From the IMG/VR virus record IMGVR_UViG_3300025110_000013, positions 1 to 61,889 of that record: 61,889 nucleotides of DNA; one strand, given 5' to 3'. Made by a program: the position numbers and the translations under genes. The notes below the pieces were generated by a model, which was not told the origin of the DNA, searched no databases, and saw only the letters and a list, made by a program, of their open reading frames with translations. The DNA comes from a virus. Lineage: Duplodnaviria; Caudoviricetes. Below, piece after piece: positions 28,336 through 57,429 of the stretch; the stretch's first letter is position 1; each line of letters starts with the position of its first letter.

Positions 28336-30188
28336 TGCCTCTTCAGAAGTTGTCCTTTAAACCCGGAGTTAATCGAGAAAACTCTCGCTATACGAGTGAG
28401 GGCGGGTGGTACGAGTGCGATAAAGTACGTTTTCGACAAGGTACGCCTGAGAAAATAGGGGGTTGGGAACGTATATCCTCTGAAACATTCCTTGGTATTT
28501 GCCGAAAGTTATTTGCATGGGTTACGTTAACTGGCGAAAAACTTTTAGGGATGGGGACTAACCTTAAATACTACATAGAAAAAGGGGGTTCCTATTACGA
28601 TATTACCCCTTTACGCGCTACTGTATCTCTCACTAACCCTTTTACCACAGTTTCTGGTTCGGCTGTGGTTACAGTAGCAGACGCTGCTGGAGGCTATATC
28701 GATGGGGATTTTGTTACTTTTAGTGGTAGTTCCGCAGTTGGTGGGTTAACTATTACAGGTGAGTTTCAGATTACTAAAGATACGAGTGCCAATACCTATA
28801 CGATCACCTTTACTTCTGCTGCCTCTTCTTCTGCTACTGGAGGAGGTTCTGTAACTGCTAAATATCAAATTAACACTGGCCCTGAAACTTGGTCACCGTT
28901 AGTTGGATGGGGAGCTTCTACATGGGGTATTGGTACTTGGGGTGTAGGTGGTACTTCTAGTGATTCATTTAGGCACTGGAGCCAAGGTAATTTTGGTGAG
29001 GATTTAATTTTTGGTGCTAGAGGTGGCAGTATCTACTATTGGGACAATAGCACTAAGACATTAGGGACAGACAGGGCTGTAGCGTTGTCTACCATCAGTG
29101 GTGCATCTAATGCACCTACAATTCAAAATTTTATTACTATTTCAGACGTTAATCGTTTTGTGTTTTGCATGGGGGTTAATCCATTAGGAAGTTCTACATT
29201 AGACCCTATGTTGGTTCGTTGGTCTGACCAAGAGGATGCGGGTAATTGGACACCTTCTGCTACCAATCAAGCAGGTAGTTTACGTTTATCGCAGGGAGCC
29301 GAAATTATTACGTCAATCCAAGGAAGGCAAGAAGTGCTTATTTGGACAGACACGGCTATGTATTCGCTTCAATATGTAGGTGCGCCTATTGTATGGGGAG
29401 CGCAGATGCTGGGTGATAACATATCAGTAGCCTCTCCTAACGCCTGTGTTTACGTCAATAATGTTGCTTATTGGATGGGTGTAGGGGGCTTTTATAAGTA
29501 CGATGGCCGAGTCCAACCCCTAAGATGTGATGTAAAGAAGTATGTATTTAATGACTTTAATGAAGAACAATACACACAGGTCTTCTCAGGAACTAACGAA
29601 GGTTATGGGGAAGTATGGTGGTTCTATTGTTCTAGCGACACAACTGCTATTGATCGTTACGTAATTTATAACTATGAGCAGGATATTTGGTATTACGGCA
29701 CAATGGCGCGTAGTGCGTGGTTAGACTCAGGGCTGCGGGATTACCCTATTGCTGCAACGTACACTAAAAACCTAGTAGACCAAGAAAGAGGGCTAGATGA
29801 TAAAGAAACAGCAACCACATCGGCTGTAGCTGCCCACATTCAGTCTGCTCAGTTTGACTTACAAGACGGCCATCAGTTTGCCTTTATACACCGCATACTG
29901 CCCGATGTGACGTTTGATGGGTCAACCGCAGATAGTCCTGTTGTTGATTTCTCGCTCCTACCTTTACAGAACTCAGGTTCAGGATACACATCCCCTGCTT
30001 CAGAAGGTGGTTCTAGTTCAGGTTCAGTAACACGCACGGCTACTTCTCCTATTGAAGCGTTTACTTCGCAGCTAAATGTAAGGGTAAGAGGGAGGCAAAT
30101 GGCAGTTAAAATAGAATCCAGCGCAGAAGGTGTAGCATGGCAGTGGGGTGCGCCACGGCTTGATATGCGCCCAGATGGGAGAAGATAA
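28335..30188 (+). CDS. Tail nozzle / DNA stabilisation protein (P22 gp10-like, beta-propeller)
   Basis: 617 aa; VRWSDQED motif; W-rich beta repeats; precedes the ejection proteins. Confidence 0.7.
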   Translation: MPLQKLSFKPGVNRENSRYTSEGGWYECDKVRFRQGTPEKIGGWERISSETFLGICRKLFAWVTLTGEKLLGMGTNLKYYIEKGGSYYDITPLRATVSLTNPFTTVSGSAVVTVADAAGGYIDGDFVTFSGSSAVGGLTITGEFQITKDTSANTYTITFTSAASSSATGGGSVTAKYQINTGPETWSPLVGWGASTWGIGTWGVGGTSSDSFRHWSQGNFGEDLIFGARGGSIYYWDNSTKTLGTDRAVALSTISGASNAPTIQNFITISDVNRFVFCMGVNPLGSSTLDPMLVRWSDQEDAGNWTPSATNQAGSLRLSQGAEIITSIQGRQEVLIWTDTAMYSLQYVGAPIVWGAQMLGDNISVASPNACVYVNNVAYWMGVGGFYKYDGRVQPLRCDVKKYVFNDFNEEQYTQVFSGTNEGYGEVWWFYCSSDTTAIDRYVIYNYEQDIWYYGTMARSAWLDSGLRDYPIAATYTKNLVDQERGLDDKETATTSAVAAHIQSAQFDLQDGHQFAFIHRILPDVTFDGSTADSPVVDFSLLPLQNSGSGYTSPASEGGSSSGSVTRTATSPIEAFTSQLNVRVRGRQMAVKIESSAEGVAWQWGAPRLDMRPDGRR

Positions 30189-30702: not shown

Positions 30703-33700
30703 TGGCTGGAAGGCCAAGTATAAGTGAAACAGATAAACTTCTTATGAAGTATCTACAAAACCCTCCTGTACAACGATTCCAAGCGGGTGGTTTACCTATA
30801 CCTATTGCACCTGTCCCAACTAATCCTGACGCTAATAGACCTATAGATCTGCCAAAAGCCCAAAGTTATGGGGGTAGCCAACGTAAAACTATAGCCACTC
30901 TTAGAATGCTAAGTAAAGTTATGAAAGCGGTGGGTATGGGTAAAGAAATATGGAGTATATTAACAGCGCCGCCACCGCCCAACCCCGGCGGTGCTCCCGG
31001 TGGCACCCCTCCGTTTATAATGAATTTTGGTGCAAATACAGAGAATAAAGATGAATATGACCGCCAAGTACAAGGCGCAATACAAAGCATGGGCGAAAAC
31101 TCTGCGGCGGGGGGTTCGGCAATGGTGGGGGCTTCATTTACTAGTGGCGCTGGGTGGACGGCAGTAAACCCTGCTATAGCCGCCTTTCTTTATATCGGAG
31201 CTAAAGTAGTAGAAGGATTTATGCCCGACCAACGACCTTTTTCCTATCAAAAATTAGATTTTATGCGTGGAAGAGGTGGTGATCATGCGGCAACTTACGA
31301 AAAGTTAATAGCAGATGGGTATAACCCTAACGATAATTTATACAATATTTTTGTTAACCAGATAAAAACACCCCAAGATTATTATGAGTTTCGAGACAAG
31401 TATTTTGTAGGTGATTTTGAAACTGACACATTTAGAAAAGACTTTGGGCTTACCGATGATAACTTTTTCCCCGTAGAAGAACCGGAATACGTAGAGTTAG
31501 CAGGTACAAGAGTCTATAACACAACCGGTAATGAAGAAGCATTTGCAGGGGTAAAGGGTCTTGTAGATAAATTTAACGAATATAAAGACGAAGGATACTC
31601 TGAACTACGGGTATTAGAAGAACTGGGCGTTGAACTTGATCCTGAAGTTATGGAGTATTTTAAGCAAGCTGATTTAGCTGCATTAGAGGAGGCTAGAGAA
31701 GCGGGCGATAAAGAAGCTTATGCAAGACTTTTAGGGGGTATGAGCGCCGGAGTTGGCGAAGCCGCGGATCAACGAGCTTATGAGAAAGCGGCAGGTATAT
31801 TAACTCGGGAAGAAGCTCTTGAGAAAATATACGATATGCCCGGAGCACAGTGGCAAAGTAAAGAATGGATGGAAGAAGTTATAGACAACTTAATGTACGG
31901 AAACACAGACGAGAGTGTTAACCGAGACGACTTCAATCAATACGAAACTGCTAAAGAACAAATAGCGGGTAGAGATTCTGGCTACAAATATTCTGGTGAT
32001 GAAAGAGAAATATATGATTGGGCAGTCAAACATACTACTGATCTAGTAAAAGCAGGTAAATTAAAAAATTATGGGGGAGCAGAAGCTTATCTTAAAGATA
32101 TAGGGTTTGGTGATGCGGCTGAATTTATTCAAGATATAGCGGATGATGTGTTTGATAGTGTATATACATTAGATGAAGGTAGAAGAGACACAGTTCCTGA
32201 ACAATATTCTCAAGCTGAACTTACCGAATTACCGAAAGAAGAACCGCCAGAATCGGTTACAAACGCTGTAGATTTAGAAAAATTAAAAGAAGCAACTAAA
32301 GTAGAAGATACACCTGAAACAGGGTTAGAAGACCCTGACGCAGATTTAGAAGAAGTAGATGTTGTTACAGGAGATGATGACCCTGATAACACAGTAGATC
32401 CTGTTGTAGAACCTCCCCCAGATTTTGAAGACCCTAAAGAAGATGATGAGGAAGAAGACGGCGGTGGAGGAGGGGGCGAGGAAACTGAAAAAGTTGATAC
32501 AGACGGAGACGGTGTGCCTGATAGCGAAGACCCGTCACCTAAAAATCCTGATATAAAAACTCAAGAAGAACAAGATGCAGCGGAAAAGAAAGCGGCTGAA
32601 GATCTAGCAAAAGCAAATGCAGCGTGGGTAAAAGCTAAGATAGAGGCTAGAGAAAAAGCAGAAGCTAAAGAAAAAGCAGACAAAGAAGCGAAAGATGCGG
32701 CTGATGCTGAACGTAGGCGGGAAAAAGGATATGACGATCTAAATGCCGGTGAAAAGCGAATATTTGAAGCAATGGAAGAGATGGGGTGGGACCCCAAGGC
32801 AAATGATATCCGAAATCGGTATTCCCGAGACGGTAGGCCCGATTACAGACTAATCTCTCAATTTTGGACGCGTCATAGTAAGTGGAAATCCCAAGATGCT
32901 AGAGAAAAACAACAAGCTAAAACGGATGCAGAAACCGCAATACGTGCAGAGATAGGTGAAGGGCATCCTTTTTATCGGGTAACAGGTCAAAATGAAGACG
33001 GGTCACTTATTTTAGTAGACCCTTTTGGTAACGTATCTTCTGGACTTCCAAGTGAAGAAGACCCAACTTTAATAAACGGCGAAAGCTACGGAGACCTTCC
33101 CGCAGACACTAACAACTCCATGCTTCCTAAATGGTTGCAAACCTATTTAAGTACAGGTACTACAGACGGTGGTACTGATGGTGGTACTGACGGTGGTACT
33201 GAAACAGGTGGTGGTACTGATGGTGGTACTACTGGAGGCGGTACTGAAACAGGTGGTGGTACTGATGGTGGTACTACTGGAGGCGGTACTGAAACAGGTG
33301 GTGGTACTGACGGGGGTACTGACACAGGTGGTACAGACGGTGGTACAGACGGTGGTACTGATGGTGGAGATGATGGTGGTACAGATACTGGTACTACTGG
33401 AGGCGGTACTGACGGTGGTACAGACGGTGGTACTGATGGTGGAGATGATGGCGGTACTGATGGTGGTGGTACAGACACAGGTGGTGGTGACGGCGGAGAC
33501 GGTACAGGAGATGGTACAGGAGATGGTACAGGGGATGGTACAGGAACAGGAGATGGAAGCGGAGACGGTACAGGGACAGGAGATGGAAGCGGGGACGGTA
33601 GTGGGAGAGGAAGTGGAGCAGGAATGGGGATGGGGCTTTTACAGTTGTTGTCAGCCCCTGATGCGTTAGGTCAAAAAGTCGATGTAAAGCCGCCAGACCC

Positions 33701-52855: not shown

Positions 52856-54678
52856 TCACATTCTCCATAAGACCTTCCCACAAAAGCCTCGCAATCCAAA
52901 GGTAACCCTTCGGCCCAATCTGGAACCCAACGCATATACATCTCTATGTCTTGCTTCGCTTGTTCTACATCGTCCTCCTTGACGCAGCATACAATCGAGT
53001 CATGTACAGTCAGTGCTACACGATGTTTCTTTGATATCTTTAGCATCTGTTCTGCAATAATGCAACGGGCTAACGCTTGACACGCGTTCTCCACAAATTT
53101 CCCACCGTATATCTTGGCGCGTCCGTTCCTTCTTTTATATGTATACTCCATACCTTTAGAATCATTGACCCCCTTAAGATCGTCATACCGCATAAGTAAT
53201 CCAGAGGGAAGGCGCACTGCTGATAAATCACCAACCGGCTCCAGTACTTGAGGTACACCGATTGACTTCTCTTTACCTTTAGCTAACTCACGGATCATAA
53301 GCTGTGCTTCTTGCCACAAACCACTTATCTCTGCATTAGCTTCTCGATAAACCTGTATAACCCGCCGCGCTTCCTCGATGTCTATTTCAAATCCGAAAGT
53401 ACCCATCTGCGCTTGGAACTTAACCGCGCCCATGCCGTAACCACTGCCTAATATTGTGGTCTTACCAACAAACCGTTCGTCTTTAGTAACCTCTGACTCA
53501 TCTTTATTGTAGATACGGGAAGCCATCTTTACATAGACATCCTCTCCGTTGCGGAAAGAACTAACCAAATCCTCTTGCCCCGCCAACCATGCAAGTACTC
53601 TTGCCTCTATTTGAGCAGAGTCACAGTCAATCAAAACATAGCCGTCGGGAGCTATGATACTTCTCTTTAAGGTCTTACCATCAGGCCCACGACTAGGAAG
53701 GTTTTGTAAGTTAATCTTGTCATCACCACCCCATCGACCTGTATGGGCAGCGTAATATCTTACAGGCACAGGCAGTATGCCGCGTCTGGATATGTCGATA
53801 AATCGTTGGGTTCGGGTTTCTTCTAGGGTGCTTTTGTTACCAAGCCGCGCCGCTACTAAAGCTTGGATACTAATAGATGGATGTTCTTGCAGTGCTTTGA
53901 ACCCTTCATCTGTCTTAGCGAAAGCATACGTTTCTTTTCCAGTGGTAGGGCTTATCTTAGTAGGGGGAATAACGCCGTTCTTCTTTAGCAGTTCAGCAAA
54001 CTTATCGTTACTCATCAGGGATTCTTTACTAACCCCCGCCTCTATGAGTAGATCATCCTTTCTATCTCGTATCGCTATAAGGTGTTGCTCTAGCAGACCC
54101 ATATCCAAATCTAGTATGGGTTCTATAAACATACGAAGTGTAGTATCAATCACCTTAAGTTCTTGTCTGGGATAACCCGCCGCCATTATTGAAAACAATT
54201 TGTAGGTCAGTTCGACATCGTTAATACAGTAGTCGCCATACTTATCAAGGCTTACTTCGCTAAACTCTTCTCGACGCTTACCCATTGCATCGACTACTTC
54301 AGTACCCTTCTCACCAATATTATAACGCTGCGCTAATGCAGCTAGACTACCGCCAACCTCTACACCATGCAGACTTCTAGCCATACATAATGTATCGGCC
54401 CAAACCTTCGGGTGTATGTCGAACAGCCAAGACAGTATTGCGCCATCAAACATGGTGTTATGTGCAAGCACCATGCTGTTAGCCCAATCGAATTCATGTA
54501 GGTATTCTTTAGTTTGTTCAAACGTGCCGCTCGCCCACTCTGCGTACCCATCGTTTACTTTTATGCTAACGCCCACCACTTCAAAACGAGGGTCGCGTAC
54601 GTATTCTTCTGTAGTAAGTTTACTCAGTGAGAAGTCCTTACTGTAAAAGGTCTCAAAGTCTATTGTTATTAAGTCCAC
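52852..54678 (-). CDS. polA: DNA polymerase family A with 3'-5' exonuclease
   Basis: Exo DFET, HNTMFD, YCINDV; motif A DSAQIEAR; motif B RFVGKTTILGSGYG; motif C VHDS. Confidence 0.93.
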   Translation of the reverse strand: MDLITIDFETFYSKDFSLSKLTTEEYVRDPRFEVVGVSIKVNDGYAEWASGTFEQTKEYLHEFDWANSMVLAHNTMFDGAILSWLFDIHPKVWADTLCMARSLHGVEVGGSLAALAQRYNIGEKGTEVVDAMGKRREEFSEVSLDKYGDYCINDVELTYKLFSIMAAGYPRQELKVIDTTLRMFIEPILDLDMGLLEQHLIAIRDRKDDLLIEAGVSKESLMSNDKFAELLKKNGVIPPTKISPTTGKETYAFAKTDEGFKALQEHPSISIQALVAARLGNKSTLEETRTQRFIDISRRGILPVPVRYYAAHTGRWGGDDKINLQNLPSRGPDGKTLKRSIIAPDGYVLIDCDSAQIEARVLAWLAGQEDLVSSFRNGEDVYVKMASRIYNKDESEVTKDERFVGKTTILGSGYGMGAVKFQAQMGTFGFEIDIEEARRVIQVYREANAEISGLWQEAQLMIRELAKGKEKSIGVPQVLEPVGDLSAVRLPSGLLMRYDDLKGVNDSKGMEYTYKRRNGRAKIYGGKFVENACQALARCIIAEQMLKISKKHRVALTVHDSIVCCVKEDDVEQAKQDIEMYMRWVPDWAEGLPLDCEAFVGRSYGECE

Positions 54679-54705
54679 GTTATTAGTTCCAGTAGTATTT
54701 GCATT

Positions 54706-54867
54706 TTAAGATTTAGTGAGTACGATTTTTTCTCTGTGGAAACCCCTACGTATACCCACCGCTTTAGTCATACCAATAGGTACTTGTTTAATCTCCCCTC
54801 CTTTACTCAAGAATTCTGTAACTTTATCGTTAAGTTCTTTACTTTCTTCTGCCTTCGTTTTATTCAT
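54706..54867 (-). CDS. Small SutA-like RNA-polymerase-binding protein (53 aa)
   Basis: ELNDKVTEFLSKGGEIKQV resembles the SutA core (EEFLxRGGKVQEI). True ATG at 54867; the longer ORF merely runs through the array. Confidence 0.55.
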   Translation of the reverse strand: MNKTKAEESKELNDKVTEFLSKGGEIKQVPIGMTKAVGIRRGFHREKIVLTKS

Positions 54868-54872
54868 TTTTA

Positions 54873-55343
54873 ATAACCACACCTGCCAAACCACACACCA
54901 CCTTGACCCGCCGTAATCCACCTGATCCCAACCCGCCATACCTGCCAAACCCCAACCGAATCTACCGGACCTCTGCATAACTCAACTTGCCGCAACGCAC
55001 CTGACCTGCCTTACCGGAACCCAACAAAACTTAACGTAAACCACCTTAACTGAACATATCCTACCTGCCTTACCACACCCCATCTTGGCCCACCACAACC
55101 CATCTAAATAAACCACACCTGACCTGCCATACCGCATCGTGCCTTATCTCAACATACCCCGAGCCACCATACCTGCCTTACCTTACCTCGCCAAACCTAA
55201 CCTCGCCGCATCCAAACGCATCTGACCATGTCATAACTCGCCTTACCTGCCAAATCATGCCCCAGCCTAACCCACCAAAACCTTACAAATCCAAACCGAC
55301 CTGACCACACCTGCCAAACCAAACCGCATCCAGACCAAGCCAA
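54873..55343 (-). ncRNA. Non-coding pentamer-register array (GGCA + n x G-N-Y-N-N); candidate guide-RNA array
   Basis: GGCAGGT (plus-strand ACCTGCC) at 54881, 54940, 55004, 55063, 55122, 55171, 55245, 55309. Spacings 59, 64, 59, 59, 49, 74, 64 are all 5n+4. Of 80 pentamers, 74 start with G, 78 have a pyrimidine at position 3, and 40 are GGY. Confidence 0.85.
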
Positions 55344-55344
55344 T

Positions 55345-55845
55345 TTATTTTTTAAGAAACAAACTGATTGGTTCCAAGACATCCGATAACTCGGACAAGG
55401 CTTTGTATTTGTTTGTAAATGCCTCTAGCTCCTTCTTTGCGTTGTCAACTAACTGTTGTCTGCCTTCGGGATCTTTCAACATATCAAACGTGTTAAGCCA
55501 GATTCTTTGGGGCTTGCCGCCGCACTCAATCTTTGCTCGTTGAAACAAACGAATCTCTGTAGGTTCGATCTGATCCTCGTTTAACTTCTCAGTCACTACT
55601 ACTAAAGACCTTTTGATATTTTTCTCTGTTATCAATCGGAATTTATTACCCGCTATTTCGTCGTTCCATTCAAAGTCGTTATGCAAAACAGACTTTGGGC
55701 TACGAGCGTGTTCTACTAAAGAACCATCGGGGGCATAACCCCCGTGGCGTTTATTCAGAGCCTCTATTTCCTTTAGAGCAGCGTTCGCATCTGCCTTGAA
55801 AAAAGACCCCTTTCTCCATTTAACTTCGGTGTAAACAGGTTTCAT
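55345..55845 (-). CDS. Partner protein of the RAMP cassette (166 aa)
   Basis: LVEHARSPKSVLHNDFEWNDEIAG motif; ATGA overlap with the RAMP gene; the array starts 3 nt after its stop. Confidence 0.8.
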   Translation of the reverse strand: MKPVYTEVKWRKGSFFKADANAALKEIEALNKRHGGYAPDGSLVEHARSPKSVLHNDFEWNDEIAGNKFRLITEKNIKRSLVVVTEKLNEDQIEPTEIRLFQRAKIECGGKPQRIWLNTFDMLKDPEGRQQLVDNAKKELEAFTNKYKALSELSDVLEPISLFLKK

Positions 55846-56489
55846 GCTGCTGTTTCCGATTCAAAGTCTATGAAGGTTTCCTTCAGTTCAATTTGATGCT
55901 TGAACTCCCTGTCAACCTCAAACCGACCATACTCACCGCCCTTTTCTGGGCGCATTTCACCTAGTCCAACACCGAAACCGGCCCTTTGTATTAGATTTAA
56001 GATGGTATTTTGTGTCAGCGATTGAGAGTCAAACTCCATCCGAACGATCATCGACCAGTTACGAAACTCAGGACGATAACGCAAATCAGTAGAACCCATG
56101 CCTACCCGAACTATGTCTTCCCGCATCAGAGGGTCTTCTGATTCAAAAGCACACAGATTGTTGACCGTATCATCAGGAATAATGAACAGGGACTTTCTAA
56201 GTAAAGTCTTTTCAAGTCCGATGTCTTTGTGAGCAGCATTGATAAAACACCTTTTCAATCCCCCTGCCGGAAACCCAAAGCGTCCATCCTCACAAACATA
56301 AGCAGCATCCCTAAACTCTTGCTCTGGGTCTCTGACATCTCGGTTCTTCACCTTCACCCCTTGGTGCTTGTCCTTCATCATCTTTATTGCTTTCATACTC
56401 CACTTATGCTCGATCAAAGCAGAGATCCCCTTGATGCGCGTGGTCAAAATCGACTGCTGCATCTCTTCAAGTTGTATTACGTTACTCAT
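55842..56489 (-). CDS. Stand-alone RAMP/Cas7-like RNA-binding protein (215 aa)
   Basis: N-terminal strand RIKGISALIEH; FPAGGLKRCF (cf. RAMP PgSslKG); YRPEF..W; C-terminal Gly-rich loop GFGVGLGEMRPEKGGEYGRFEV; AGGA SD before the ATG at 56489. Confidence 0.8.
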   Translation of the reverse strand: MSNVIQLEEMQQSILTTRIKGISALIEHKWSMKAIKMMKDKHQGVKVKNRDVRDPEQEFRDAAYVCEDGRFGFPAGGLKRCFINAAHKDIGLEKTLLRKSLFIIPDDTVNNLCAFESEDPLMREDIVRVGMGSTDLRYRPEFRNWSMIVRMEFDSQSLTQNTILNLIQRAGFGVGLGEMRPEKGGEYGRFEVDREFKHQIELKETFIDFESETAA

Positions 56490-56521
56490 TCTATCTTCCT
56501 TAGCGGCTATGCCGCGCTTTT

Positions 56522-56956
56522 TTAGTTTAGAAAGTTTCCTTTCTCTAGTCGTTTGATTTCTGCGTCTATATAAAACTTGATCTTCTTGGCATCCCGAAGT
56601 TTGTCGCTGTGCGAAGCGATGCCGTACCGATAGCATGATCTGAACACCTCACCGATCTGTGCGTTCATATCTCTATGTGAGATCAAGTCCTGTAATTCTT
56701 TAGCCCCCTTTGGAAGTTCATAGTAAGCCGCGGTGCTACCGTCCGATAAGGTCTTATCAGGAAGTTCCCAACTCAACCCCGTACCTGCTGGAGGGTGACC
56801 AACAGCAACATTATTGTCACCCGTTGTAATGTCACCACGCGCACTTCTTACTTTGTATACATAAGAAGCTGACACTCCAACCCGCGCCGCTATTTCTTTG
56901 TTAGATTTCTTAGGAGATCGGATTAATGCCTTTGCTATTTTCTCGTACTTATTCAA
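56522..56956 (-). CDS. HTH + DUF3310-like protein (probable TTG start at 56956)
   Basis: HTH SNKEIAARVGVSASYVYKVR; C-terminal YYELP...GEVFRSCYRYG...DAKKIKFY. Confidence 0.65.
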   Translation of the reverse strand: MNKYEKIAKALIRSPKKSNKEIAARVGVSASYVYKVRSARGDITTGDNNVAVGHPPAGTGLSWELPDKTLSDGSTAAYYELPKGAKELQDLISHRDMNAQIGEVFRSCYRYGIASHSDKLRDAKKIKFYIDAEIKRLEKGNFLN

Positions 56957-57269
56957 AATCAAGCTCCAGTTGTTTATCGTTTGCATCGGATGGGTTAAGA
57001 ATGTCTTGGATACTGTGCATATTCTTCTCGTTAACGATTAACGCTATGCCTTTTTGTTTCTCAATATCTTCTAGGTTTATTTGTTGGAGGGGGGTAGGAG
57101 TGTTCTTACCCGCTTTACATTCGATGCCGAAGAACTTGCCTTGGTAACATCCTACTATGTCTGGCACGCCGCTACGTCCGTACCCGCCTGTCACTGGGTA
57201 GAAGTAGTAAGCACCAAGGGCGCGTAGCTGCTTGACTACAACCTTTTTTACTTTAGCTTCGGGAGTCAT
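56949..57269 (-). CDS. VRR-NUC domain nuclease (Holliday-junction resolvase-like)
   Basis: TPEAKVK, GVPD, GIECKA, PTPLQ. Confidence 0.88.
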   Translation of the reverse strand: MTPEAKVKKVVVKQLRALGAYYFYPVTGGYGRSGVPDIVGCYQGKFFGIECKAGKNTPTPLQQINLEDIEKQKGIALIVNEKNMHSIQDILNPSDANDKQLELDFE

Positions 57270-57429
57270 CCTTTTTCCTTCTTACCTTTTTTTCGGGTTC
57301 TTTGTTCGCTATGGAATGGTTGGCCGTTAAGGTCTTTTCGACGCGAATCAACGTATCTTTTATTTCCGTTAGCGTAGACATCACCTCCATAAAGTCCTGT
57401 TCTTCTAATTCTATTATTACTTTTGCCAT
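57253..57429 (-). CDS. Hypothetical protein (58 aa; probable start 57429)
   Basis: AAGG SD; MAKVIIELEEQ... Confidence 0.6.
   Translation of the reverse strand: MAKVIIELEEQDFMEVMSTLTEIKDTLIRVEKTLTANHSIANKEPEKKVRRKKDDSRS

What the first reader, a model, noticed from the sequence alone, without database searches (positions are those of the whole stretch)
54873..55343. Array grammar: GGCA punctuation and a strict 5-nt register with variable dinucleotides
Minus-strand parse. U1 (55315-55252): GGCA GGTGT GGTCA GGTCG GTTTG GATTT GTAAG GTTTT GGTGG GTTAG GCTGG GGCAT GATTT. U2: GGCA GGTAA GGCGA GTTAT GACAT GGTCA GATGC GTTTG GATGC GGCGA GGTTA GGTTT GGCGA GGTAA GGTAA. U3: GGCA GGTAT GGTGG CTCGG GGTAT GTTGA GATAA GGCAC GATGC GGTAT. 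U4: GGCA GGTCA GGTGT GGTTT ATTTA GATGG GTTGT GGTGG GCCAA GATGG GGTGT GGTAA. U5: GGCA GGTAG GATAT GTTCA GTTAA GGTGG TTTAC GTTAA GTTTT GTTGG GTTCC GGTAA. U6: GGCA GGTCA GGTGC GTTGC GGCAA GTTGA GTTAT GCAGA GGTCC GGTAG ATTCG GTTGG GGTTT. U7: GGCA GGTAT GGCGG GTTGG GATCA GGTGG ATTAC GGCGG GTCAA GGTGG TGTGT GGTTT. Every unit is 5n+4 nt long (n = 12, 14, 9, 11, 11, 12, 11). Every boundary reads G(G/A)T-WW-GGCA-GGT, a plausible processing site. Positions 1 and 3 are constrained (74/80 G, 78/80 Y) while positions 4-5 vary freely. That pattern fits information storage better than a decaying satellite, and 5-nt periodicity does not fit protein coding.
Basis: seen in the sequence. Interest (0 to 1): 0.92.

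Follow-up and report, generated by a model that had tools for sequence, protein, structure and literature searches.

The report
Phage VIPR guide-RNA array
The five-base rhythm is real and is the guide-RNA array of a VIPR system, a CRISPR-related RNA-guided DNA silencer of phages first described in 2026, so it is a good new example of a known kind.

Summary
On the minus strand, 54873-55343 is a non-coding run of G-N-Y-N-N pentamers, cut into seven units of 9-14 pentamers by eight GGCA(GGT) four-base steps.

It is the "staggered" vrRNA array of a VIPR system (bioRxiv 10.64898/2026.04.26.720920).
- The gene two places upstream (55842-56489) is a Vipr protein. Its family profile hits the PDB chain named "SUSP1 Vipr protein" at E 9.8e-13, and its model matches Csm3/Cas7 at Z 11.5.
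- In 76 of 80 viral contigs carrying a homologue, the same pentamer grammar lies beside the gene.
- Under the published rule (NN paired, every third target base skipped), unit 2 spells the C-terminal motif of P4-type integrases. That gave 42 exact hits against 0 for a reversed-order control.
- Unit 7 spells a primase-helicase Walker A motif.
- Unit 1 spells the first codons of a small gene in a P4-like element that four other phages' arrays also hit.
- Units 4 and 6 gave no exact hit. Units 3 and 5 had no collection scan.

This is a new member of a known kind. This scan has already noted such loci in at least 46 other genomes.

The parts
55842..56489 (-). vipr gene: a stand-alone RAMP (Cas7/Csm3-like) protein of 215 aa. 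The open frame runs up to 56636, but homologues start at the Met at 56489.
   Evidence: phrog_4652, E 1.5e-29. 965 homologues, none named. AF2 model with pLDDT 84.4 and pTM 0.77. Foldseek top hits are Csm3 chains, E 4.8e-6, prob 1.00. VIA-align Z 11.5 to Csm3 9g9a_D (rmsd 4.4, 157 aligned) and to Cmr4 6s6b_I. The A1 profile hits PDB 36pp_D 'SUSP1 Vipr protein' at E 9.8e-13 and the SUSP1 genome ORF at 28495-29061 at E 5e-15. hhalign gives 98.1%.
55345..55845 (-). vap-like accessory gene of 166 aa. Its start overlaps the vipr stop (ATGA).
   Evidence: phrog_15946, E 2.7e-14. An ORF of about 157-185 aa starts at the vipr stop in most of the 80 loci and follows the first array in most of the rest. 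20 such proteins align at 17-58% identity to the window's copy. AF2 model with pLDDT 89.5. No fold was assigned. BLASTP finds no similarity to the SUSP1 gene next to vipr.
55316..55343 (-). Array leader: five in-register pentamers directly after the vap stop codon.
55252..55315 (-). Unit 1 (GGCA + 12 pentamers). The predicted guide matches the first codons of a 93-aa ORF of a P4-like element.
   Evidence: 11 of 12 NN on L218, antisense, with the skipped bases on codon position 3. The identical unit is present in L001 and L081.
55178..55251 (-). Unit 2 (GGCA + 14 pentamers). The predicted guide matches the C-terminal motif of P4-type tyrosine integrases.
   Evidence: the 10-NN core gave 42 exact matches in viral contigs. 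The 41 I could read all encode MMQAWADYL(D/E) in frame, with 10-12 of 14 NN matching. The reversed-order control gave 0.
55129..55177 (-). Unit 3 (GGCA + 9 pentamers). Target not sought in the collections.
   Evidence: The identical unit is in L081. No match of 80% or more in the loci held.
55070..55128 (-). Unit 4 (GGCA + 11 pentamers). No target found.
   Evidence: The pattern of NN 2-11 gave 0 exact matches in viral contigs.
55011..55069 (-). Unit 5 (GGCA + 11 pentamers). Target not sought in the collections.
54947..55010 (-). Unit 6 (GGCA + 12 pentamers). No target found.
   Evidence: The pattern of NN 1-11 gave 0 exact matches in viral contigs. The identical unit is in L081.
54888..54946 (-). 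Unit 7 (GGCA + 11 pentamers). The predicted guide matches the Walker A motif of a primase-helicase family.
   Evidence: 2 viral and 4 genome contigs encode (R/K/L)GGQGTGKGVF in long frames, with 10 of 11 NN matching. 3 further genome hits lie in short frames and are probably chance.
54874..54887 (-). Closing GGCA-GGTGT-GGTTA, 6 bases before the ATG of the next gene.
   Evidence: The same end is seen in L001 and L081.

Best explanation
This is the guide-RNA (vrRNA) array of a VIPR system (Viral Interference Programmable Repeat).

Shown here:
- A Vipr RAMP gene and a conserved partner gene lie directly upstream on the same strand.
- The array has the GGY/NN grammar, relaxed here to G-N-Y/NN.
- The grammar travels with the vipr gene across many phages.
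- The NN dinucleotides of three units, read with one skipped base between pairs, spell conserved codons of an integrase, a primase-helicase and a small ORF of P4-like integrative elements.

Taken from the preprints on Escherichia phage SUSP1 and inferred for this phage:
- The array is transcribed and cut into single guides of 49-74 nt. In 'staggered' arrays these guides abut with a 1-nt overlap, which here is the GGCA four-base step.
- One Vipr protomer binds each pentamer, burying G1, G2 and Y3 and presenting N4 and N5.
- The filament pairs these NN with double-stranded DNA, skipping every third base. The skipped bases fall on wobble positions, so synonymous changes do not allow escape.
- Binding represses transcription.

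The likely purpose is to silence a satellite or other integrative element that would parasitise this marine phage.
For: Protein. The A1 profile matches 'SUSP1 Vipr protein' (PDB 36pp_D) at E 9.8e-13 and the SUSP1 genome at E 5e-15. hhalign gives 98.1%, with the G-loop and thumb motifs aligned. The fold matches Csm3/Cmr4 at Z 11.5.

Linkage.
- Of 80 PolA-related loci, only L001 and L021 have an array, and they are the only two with a vipr homologue.
- Of 80 loci fetched with the Vipr profile, 76 have a stretch passing the 7-of-8 G-N-Y test on the gene's strand.
- 88 arrays in 71 loci parse into 5077 steps of five, 442 steps of four (nearly all GGCA) and 18 other steps.

Code.
- Unit 2 core: 42 exact hits, and the 41 I could read all lie in integrase ORFs in frame. 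The same dinucleotides in reverse order gave 0 hits.
- Unit 7: 6 of 9 hits lie in one primase-helicase Walker A motif.
- Unit 1: 11 of 12 NN match at the start of ORF93 on L218. That contig carries Phage_integrase, AlpA and PriCT_2/AAA_25 genes.
- Five units from five other loci (four distinct contigs) also match L218 at 80% or more, at four sites. At three of these sites (four units) the skipped base is on codon position 3. The fifth unit (L138) skips codon position 1.
- On L218 there were 0 hits with reversed order, five shuffles, or 0-, 2- or 3-nt skips.

Other.
- No self-target in the window. The best match is 7 of 14.
- The array RNA folds no better than shuffles, z = -0.68.
- SUSP1 itself shows the GGY/NN runs the preprint describes beside its vipr gene.
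Against: - Nothing here shows that the array is transcribed or cut. RNA-library contigs cover unit 1, but contigs cannot show ends or strand, and DNA may be present in such libraries.
- Units 4 and 6 gave no exact match in viral contigs. Units 3 and 5 were not searched in any collection.
- The unit 2 and unit 7 hits are to widely conserved protein motifs. The real target element of this phage, with all guides on one contig, was not found. L218 is hit by only one of the window's own units.
- Position 2 is G in only 41 of 80 pentamers, unlike the GGY of SUSP1.
- There is no structured 3' tail like that of SUSP1 vrRNAs.
- The partner protein has no detectable similarity to the SUSP1 partner and no assigned fold.
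- Three of the seven unit 7 hits in genome contigs look like chance.
Confidence: 0.92

Rival explanations
1. The array is a decoy or sponge rather than a set of guides. Its RNA would soak up the Vipr protein of rival phages, or the phage's own, without directing it to any DNA.
For: The third preprint's abstract reports satellites and phages that carry stand-alone vrRNAs used to redirect a rival's VIPR. Units 4 and 6 have no target in the collection I searched.
Against: The array sits in one operon-like block with its own vipr and partner gene. Three of the five units searched spell conserved codons of mobile-element genes, with the skipped base on the wobble position. A sponge would not need that.
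Confidence: 0.04
2. It is a fast-evolving pentanucleotide satellite kept in register only by replication slippage, with no function of its own.
For: Units come and go between close relatives. Slippage on five-base repeats would keep multiples of five.
Against: G1 and Y3 are held at 74 and 78 of 80, while positions 4 and 5 carry 0.16 and 0.07 bits. The grammar and the GGCA step persist beside vipr genes down to 38% identity. The NN strings match real genes and order-shuffled ones do not.
Confidence: 0.01
3. It is a G-rich replication or recombination element, such as an R-loop origin, a primase-site cluster or a G-quadruplex tract, placed upstream of the DNA polymerase gene.
For: GC skew is about -0.6 on the plus strand across the stretch. 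It lies in the replication module, next to PolA.
Against: PolA relatives without vipr lack the stretch altogether and have the HTH gene directly before pol. In other phages the arrays sit beside vipr whatever the neighbours are, sometimes two or three per locus. None of these models explains the strict register, the GGCA step or the codon-matched NN strings.
Confidence: 0.01
4. It is a leader RNA wrapped by a ring-shaped RNA-binding protein, in the manner of TRAP (triplets with 2-nt spacers), to regulate the downstream SutA-like and polymerase genes.
For: A triplet plus two-base spacer, in blocks of about 11-12, resembles the TRAP binding site. That resemblance is recalled, not tested.
Against: No TRAP-like gene was seen in the six neighbouring proteins scanned. 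The partner protein is a RAMP homologous to a protein shown to form a helical filament on such repeats. Block length varies from 9 to 14.
Confidence: 0.01

Closest known systems
VIPR systems with 'staggered' vrRNA arrays (bioRxiv 10.64898/2026.04.26.720920, Results and legend of fig. S18)
   Same: A stand-alone Vipr RAMP gene plus one accessory gene. Arrays of pentamer repeats with a fixed triplet and free NN. Guides abut with a one-base overlap, seen here as the four-base GGCA step. The system is phage-borne.
   Different: I could read only the legend, not the figure or the data tables. So I cannot say whether this marine clade, its GGCA mark or its VIPR type is among the 667 systems listed. 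Position 2 is relaxed here (G 41, T 25, A 11, C 3 of 80).
Type II VIPR of Escherichia phage SUSP1 (same preprint; structures in 10.64898/2026.04.26.720927; PDB 36pp)
   Same: The Vipr protein is homologous (E about 1e-13 by profile). Guides have 9-16 repeats. The 1-nt-skip reading hits coding DNA at codon positions 1-2. Targets are genes of an integrative satellite, including its recombinase.
   Different: SUSP1 vrRNAs are separate transcripts of about 100 nt, each with a structured 3' tail of about 40 nt, one upstream and three downstream of the genes. Here seven guides abut without tails, and the RNA folds no better than shuffles. The partner proteins are not detectably alike.
Type III CRISPR-Cas backbone (Csm3/Cmr4, Cas7 family) on crRNA
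   Same: The fold is shared (Z 9-11.5). One protomer binds per RNA repeat step, and a thumb flips bases out of the guide, as the preprints state.
   Different: The step is 5 nt with three buried bases, against 6 nt with one flipped base (the latter as stated in the preprint). There is no long direct repeat, no spacer taken from a target, and no cas1/cas2 or Cas10 seen near the locus. The guide is a designed-looking periodic string, and the target is read with gaps.

Membership tests
VIPR system | A Vipr protein: a minimal RAMP with RRM core, G-loop and thumb, homologous to SUSP1 Vipr | tested here: met
   Profile against PDB 36pp_D 'SUSP1 Vipr protein', E 9.8e-13. hhalign 98.1% over 171 columns, with the ...G.G(D/E)(W/M)RP...GRF G-loop and the RYRP.F..W thumb aligned. 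Csm3/Cmr4 fold at Z 11.5.
VIPR system | vrRNA region of tandem pentamers with a conserved GGY (or related) triplet alternating with hypervariable NN, 9-16 repeats per guide | tested here: met
   Seven units of 9-14 pentamers. G1 in 74 of 80 and Y3 in 78 of 80. Positions 4 and 5 carry 0.16 and 0.07 bits. Position 2 is only 41 of 80 G, so this falls under the preprint's 'related consensus'.
VIPR system | Minimal locus: vipr plus one accessory (vap) gene, flanked by the non-coding RNA region | tested here: met
   vipr 55842-56489, a 166-aa partner overlapping its stop, then the array. The partner family is conserved beside vipr. It was not shown to be one of the six named vap families: BLASTP finds no similarity to the SUSP1 partner.
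VIPR system | NN dinucleotides specify DNA targets by the 1-nt-skip rule, typically coding sequence with the skip on the wobble base | tested here: met
   Units 1, 2 and 7 match in frame. Controls: reversed order gave 0 hits in viral contigs. On L218 there were 0 hits for reversed order, 5 shuffles and 0-, 2- and 3-nt skips, against 6 units in true order. Units 4 and 6 gave no exact hit. Units 3 and 5 were not scanned.
VIPR system | No self-targeting at 80% NN match or more | tested here: met
   The best matches in the window's own 61,889 bases are 5-7 NN of 9-14.
VIPR system | The array is transcribed and processed, and the RNA co-purifies with Vipr | not testable with these tools
   Only contigs of RNA libraries were available. 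One 96-nt contig lies on unit 1. That shows neither strand, nor ends, nor binding.
VIPR type II (SUSP1-like) | Each vrRNA ends in a conserved structured 3' tail of about 40 nt | tested here: not met
   Units abut with only GGCA between them. The array RNA has z = -0.68 against shuffles. SUSP1's own spacers with hairpins were seen for comparison.
CRISPR-Cas | Array of near-identical direct repeats of over 20 nt separated by unrelated spacers | tested here: not met
   The only recurring word is the 7-nt GGCAGGT. Tandem Repeats Finder reports no such repeat here. The 'spacers' themselves are periodic.

The most novel reading that the evidence does not exclude
In this marine clade the code itself is altered. 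The Vipr residue aligned with SUSP1 W178, which the structural preprint says stacks on G2, is Met here, and position 2 of the pentamer has become largely free. These Viprs would then read a G-N-Y triplet and leave a third base per repeat open to variation, possibly to a role in targeting or in filament dynamics. Separately, the guides point to a so far undescribed helper-satellite conflict in the sea, between this PolA phage group and P4-like elements such as L218.
Probability: 0.3. Interest if true: 0.5.

Novelty: new member of a known kind. Interest (0 to 1): 0.3.

Why it matters
It adds a well-documented marine example to a class of RNA-guided systems that is only months old in print.
- It shows that the class can be recognised from raw sequence by its five-base rhythm.
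- It gives concrete, testable target predictions: a P4-type integrase, a primase-helicase and a small ORF of an integrative element.
- The vipr-vap-array block is absent from PolA relatives that lack vipr. In them the HTH gene lies directly before pol, so the block looks like an inserted cassette.
- It offers a natural series in which a G-loop residue and repeat position 2 change together. That series could be used to dissect how Vipr reads its repeats.

It does not open a new category.

Tried and rejected
Searches that gave nothing:
- Rfam on 54300-55900 at E up to 10.
- blastn of 54000-56500 against GenBank phages.
- tRNA scan of the window.

Ideas held before the literature search and then dropped. 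All of these resemblances were recalled, none tested:
- A TRAP-like ring wrapping triplet-plus-spacer RNA.
- A primase-site cluster.
- A switch-region-like R-loop former.
- A G-quadruplex tract.
- A sigma-54 promoter at TGGCA.

Dead ends and weak results:
- A Fourier test at exactly period 5 was a poor detector because the four-base steps shift the phase. I replaced it with a 7-of-8 G-N-Y test. That test also flagged four short 40-45-nt stretches, apparently inside coding sequence, in L036, L049, L066 and L068. I take these as chance.
- GNT-only patterns were too insensitive for collection scans.
- The vap fold search gave no Foldseek match at E 0.001 or better. The best rows were weak winged-helix regulators at E 0.24-1.7. 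VIA-align rows (Z 5.7 or less) covered only the C-terminal long helix. The PDB sequence search found nothing meaningful.
- Unit 6 and unit 4 patterns gave 0 exact matches in viral contigs.
- Four of the five unit 1 metagenome hits (L217, L219-L221, nearly one sequence) lie in short frames, and I could not interpret them.
- The unit of L138 matches L218 at 9 of 9, but with the skip on codon position 1 inside an M4 peptidase gene. This is unexplained and may be chance.
- RNA runs: four metatranscriptome runs hold pieces of the stretch as contigs. In X4 the contig on unit 1 has word depth 474, against 2 for a contig on the vap gene. The tool warns that such depths cannot rank genes, so I draw no conclusion on expression.
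- The promoter scan found no sigma-70-like site on the minus strand in 54500-57400. This says little for an unknown host.
- Supplementary tables and figures of the preprints (types, target lists, fig. S17-S18 images) could not be seen. They may already list this clade.

Full report
**Observation.** On the minus strand, 54873-55343 fills the gap between a 166-aa ORF (55345-55845) and a 53-aa ORF (54706-54867) that precedes a family A DNA polymerase gene. The word GGCAGGT occurs eight times on that strand of the window, and all eight are here. The spacings are 64, 74, 49, 59, 59, 64 and 59. Cutting each unit into GGCA plus pentamers gives 80 pentamers, with G at position 1 in 74 and a pyrimidine at position 3 in 78. 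Positions 4 and 5 are nearly free, at 0.16 and 0.07 bits. Lag-5 identity is 8 standard deviations above shuffles. Rfam, a blastn of GenBank phages and a tRNA scan gave nothing.

**Relatives.** I fetched 80 viral contigs through the polymerase. Only two carried such a stretch: L001 (polymerase 93% identical) and L021 (69%). They were also the only two with a homologue of the 215-aa protein encoded at 55842-56489. Other polymerase relatives have the gene homologous to 56522-56986 directly before pol. This suggests that vipr, its partner, the array and the small downstream gene form an inserted cassette.

Two more close relatives came from that protein itself (L081, L082). Among the four closest genomes the arrays start and end alike but differ by whole units. 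The window's units 1, 3, 6 and 7 recur in L081, the first three identical and unit 7 with one change, beside two units the window lacks. Unit 1 recurs in L001. L082 shares none. Unit lengths are 49, 54, 59, 64, 69 or 74, with one 60-nt exception in L001. L021 keeps the register with a GGCG step.

**The protein.** The protein has 965 unnamed homologues. Its AlphaFold model (pLDDT 84.4) matches Csm3/Cmr4 backbone subunits of type III CRISPR complexes. Foldseek gives E 4.8e-6. VIA-align gives Z 11.5, rmsd 4.4 and 157 residues aligned to 9g9a_D.

A profile of 22 homologues (A1) fetched 80 further viral loci at 38-100% identity. Of these, 76 of 80 have a stretch on the gene's strand that passes the 7-of-8 G-N-Y test. 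Two of the four without one (L136, L159) end about 100 bases after the gene. Three of the 80 are contigs already held.

A dynamic-programming parse of 88 arrays in 71 loci gave 5077 steps of five, 442 of four and 18 others. The parser favours steps of five by a penalty of 3. The four-base steps are almost always GGCA. The fixed triplet differs by lineage: GGT, GGC, GTT or GCT. The median is 10 pentamers between steps. Some loci have two or three arrays around the genes.

[quoted passage not shown] I read its abstract, its Results, three methods sections and some legend passages. It describes VIPR systems as follows:
- a stand-alone RAMP (Vipr) and an accessory gene (vap);
- vrRNAs made of 9-16 YNNGG repeats;
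- the NN pair with double-stranded DNA while every third target base is skipped;
- natural targets are genes of satellites and rival phages;
- array forms include 'staggered arrays' whose vrRNAs overlap by 1 nt.

A structural companion preprint (10.64898/2026.04.26.720927; abstract and section 5 read) shows one Vipr protomer per repeat, with G1, G2 and Y3 buried. A third preprint (10.64898/2026.10.15.759431; abstract and section 6 read) shows silencing of a satellite's excision recombinase. A fourth paper appeared only in the search listing.

**Membership tested here.**
- The A1 profile hits the PDB chain named 'SUSP1 Vipr protein' at E 9.8e-13. It hits one ORF of the SUSP1 genome at E 5e-15. 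hhalign gives 98.1%.
- That SUSP1 ORF is flanked by GGY/NN runs, one upstream and three downstream, each followed by a hairpin-bearing spacer. This agrees with the preprint.
- The window's array has no such tails, and as RNA it folds no better than shuffles (z = -0.68). It therefore fits the staggered form, the four-base GGCA step being the one-base overlap.
- The 166-aa partner is a conserved companion of vipr. It shows no similarity to the SUSP1 partner, and its confident model (pLDDT 89.5) found no clear fold match.

**The code tested here.** I joined the NN of each unit with one free base between them.
- Unit 2. Its ten central NN matched 42 viral contigs exactly. In the 41 I could read, the site encodes MMQAWADYL(D/E) in frame. 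In most of them it lies near the C-terminus of an open frame of about 390-420 aa, and the frame I read in full carries tyrosine-integrase motifs. Between 10 and 12 of the 14 NN match. The same dinucleotides in reverse order matched nothing.
- Unit 7. It matched two viral and seven genome contigs. Six of the nine encode GGQGTGKGVF in long primase-helicase-like frames. Three lie in short frames and look like chance.
- Units 6 and 4 matched nothing in viral contigs.
- Unit 1. It matched five metagenome contigs. One of them, L218, carries a Phage_integrase gene, an AlpA gene, a PriCT_2/AAA_25 primase-helicase gene and a 93-aa ORF. Unit 1 covers that ORF's first codons on the opposite strand, at 11 of 12 NN.

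I then took 380 distinct units from all arrays held and scanned the fetched target loci. Six units hit L218 at 80% or more. Five of them were not used to fetch it. They lie at four sites, three of which have the skipped base on the wobble position. Reversed order, five shuffles and 0-, 2- and 3-nt skips each gave no hit on L218. No unit matches the window itself above 7 of 14.

**Limits.**
- Transcription, cutting at GGCA and binding by Vipr are not shown for this phage.
- RNA-library contigs lie on unit 1 and on the genes, but they cannot show strand or ends.
- The element this phage really meets, carrying several of its targets together, was not found.
- The preprints' supplementary tables were closed, so the VIPR type of this clade is not assigned.

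**Verdict.** The thing is a VIPR staggered guide array with its vipr and partner genes. It is a new member of a kind described in 2026 preprints. This scan has already noted it, under the words I searched, in 57 findings from at least 46 genomes. I reached the identification before reading those notes.

Noticed in passing
window 54706-54867 (-): The 53-aa ORF that starts 6 bases after the array matches the SutA RNA-polymerase-binding domain (PF20661, E 1.8e-9, above the curated cut-off). It recurs after the array in L001, L081 and L082. A small RNAP-binding protein directly behind a transcription-silencing system may or may not be a coincidence.
   Followed up: partly
window 54700-56500 compared with L009, L016, L024, L073, L075: Polymerase relatives without vipr have the homologue of the 56522-56986 gene (HTH N-terminus) directly before pol. 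So vipr, partner, array and the SutA-like gene look like one inserted cassette.
   Followed up: partly
Vipr G-loop (window protein residues about 175-180) and loci L083-L162: The residue before the conserved RP aligns with SUSP1 W178, which is said to stack on G2. It is W in 52 loci (mean G at repeat position 2 of 0.83, minimum 0.55), M in 13 loci (mean 0.50, range 0.07-0.97) and G in the one GCT-type locus (0.04). The window has M, and G2 is 41 of 80. The loci are not independent, and there are exceptions (L118, L138).
   Followed up: partly
L218 (whole contig, 8268 bases): A P4-like integrative element: integrase, ORF170, AlpA, ORF152, a 731-aa primase-helicase and ORF93, followed by an M4 peptidase gene. 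Guides from the window and from L090, L103, L105, L109 and L138 match it at five sites. It is a candidate natural target of this Vipr clade.
   Followed up: yes
L218 7239-7264: A unit of L138 matches 9 of 9 NN inside the peptidase gene, but with the skipped base on codon position 1. The string is A/T-rich. This is chance or a different kind of target.
   Followed up: no
window 54957-55410 (RNA-library run X8): One contig joins unit 6 to unit 1 with 63 other letters in place of 230. This is a different unit order or content in a relative present in that sample (tables 5 and 8).
   Followed up: no
window 55842-56636 (-): The open frame of the vipr gene extends 49 codons upstream of the Met at which all 21 aligned homologues begin or align. 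The annotated start should probably be 56489.
   Followed up: partly
window 33168-33600 (+): A long imperfect tandem repeat of period 12 to 75 (consensus GGTGGTACTGAT and variants), G/T-rich. It also tripped my composition filter. It is probably a Gly/Thr/Asp-rich repeat in a structural protein.
   Followed up: no
L207, L208, L209, L213: The primase-helicase family carrying the unit 7 motif turns up in contigs labelled as very different organisms: Methanosarcinales, Endozoicomonas, Planctomycetota and Comamonadaceae MAGs. It is therefore a widely travelling mobile-element gene.
   Followed up: no
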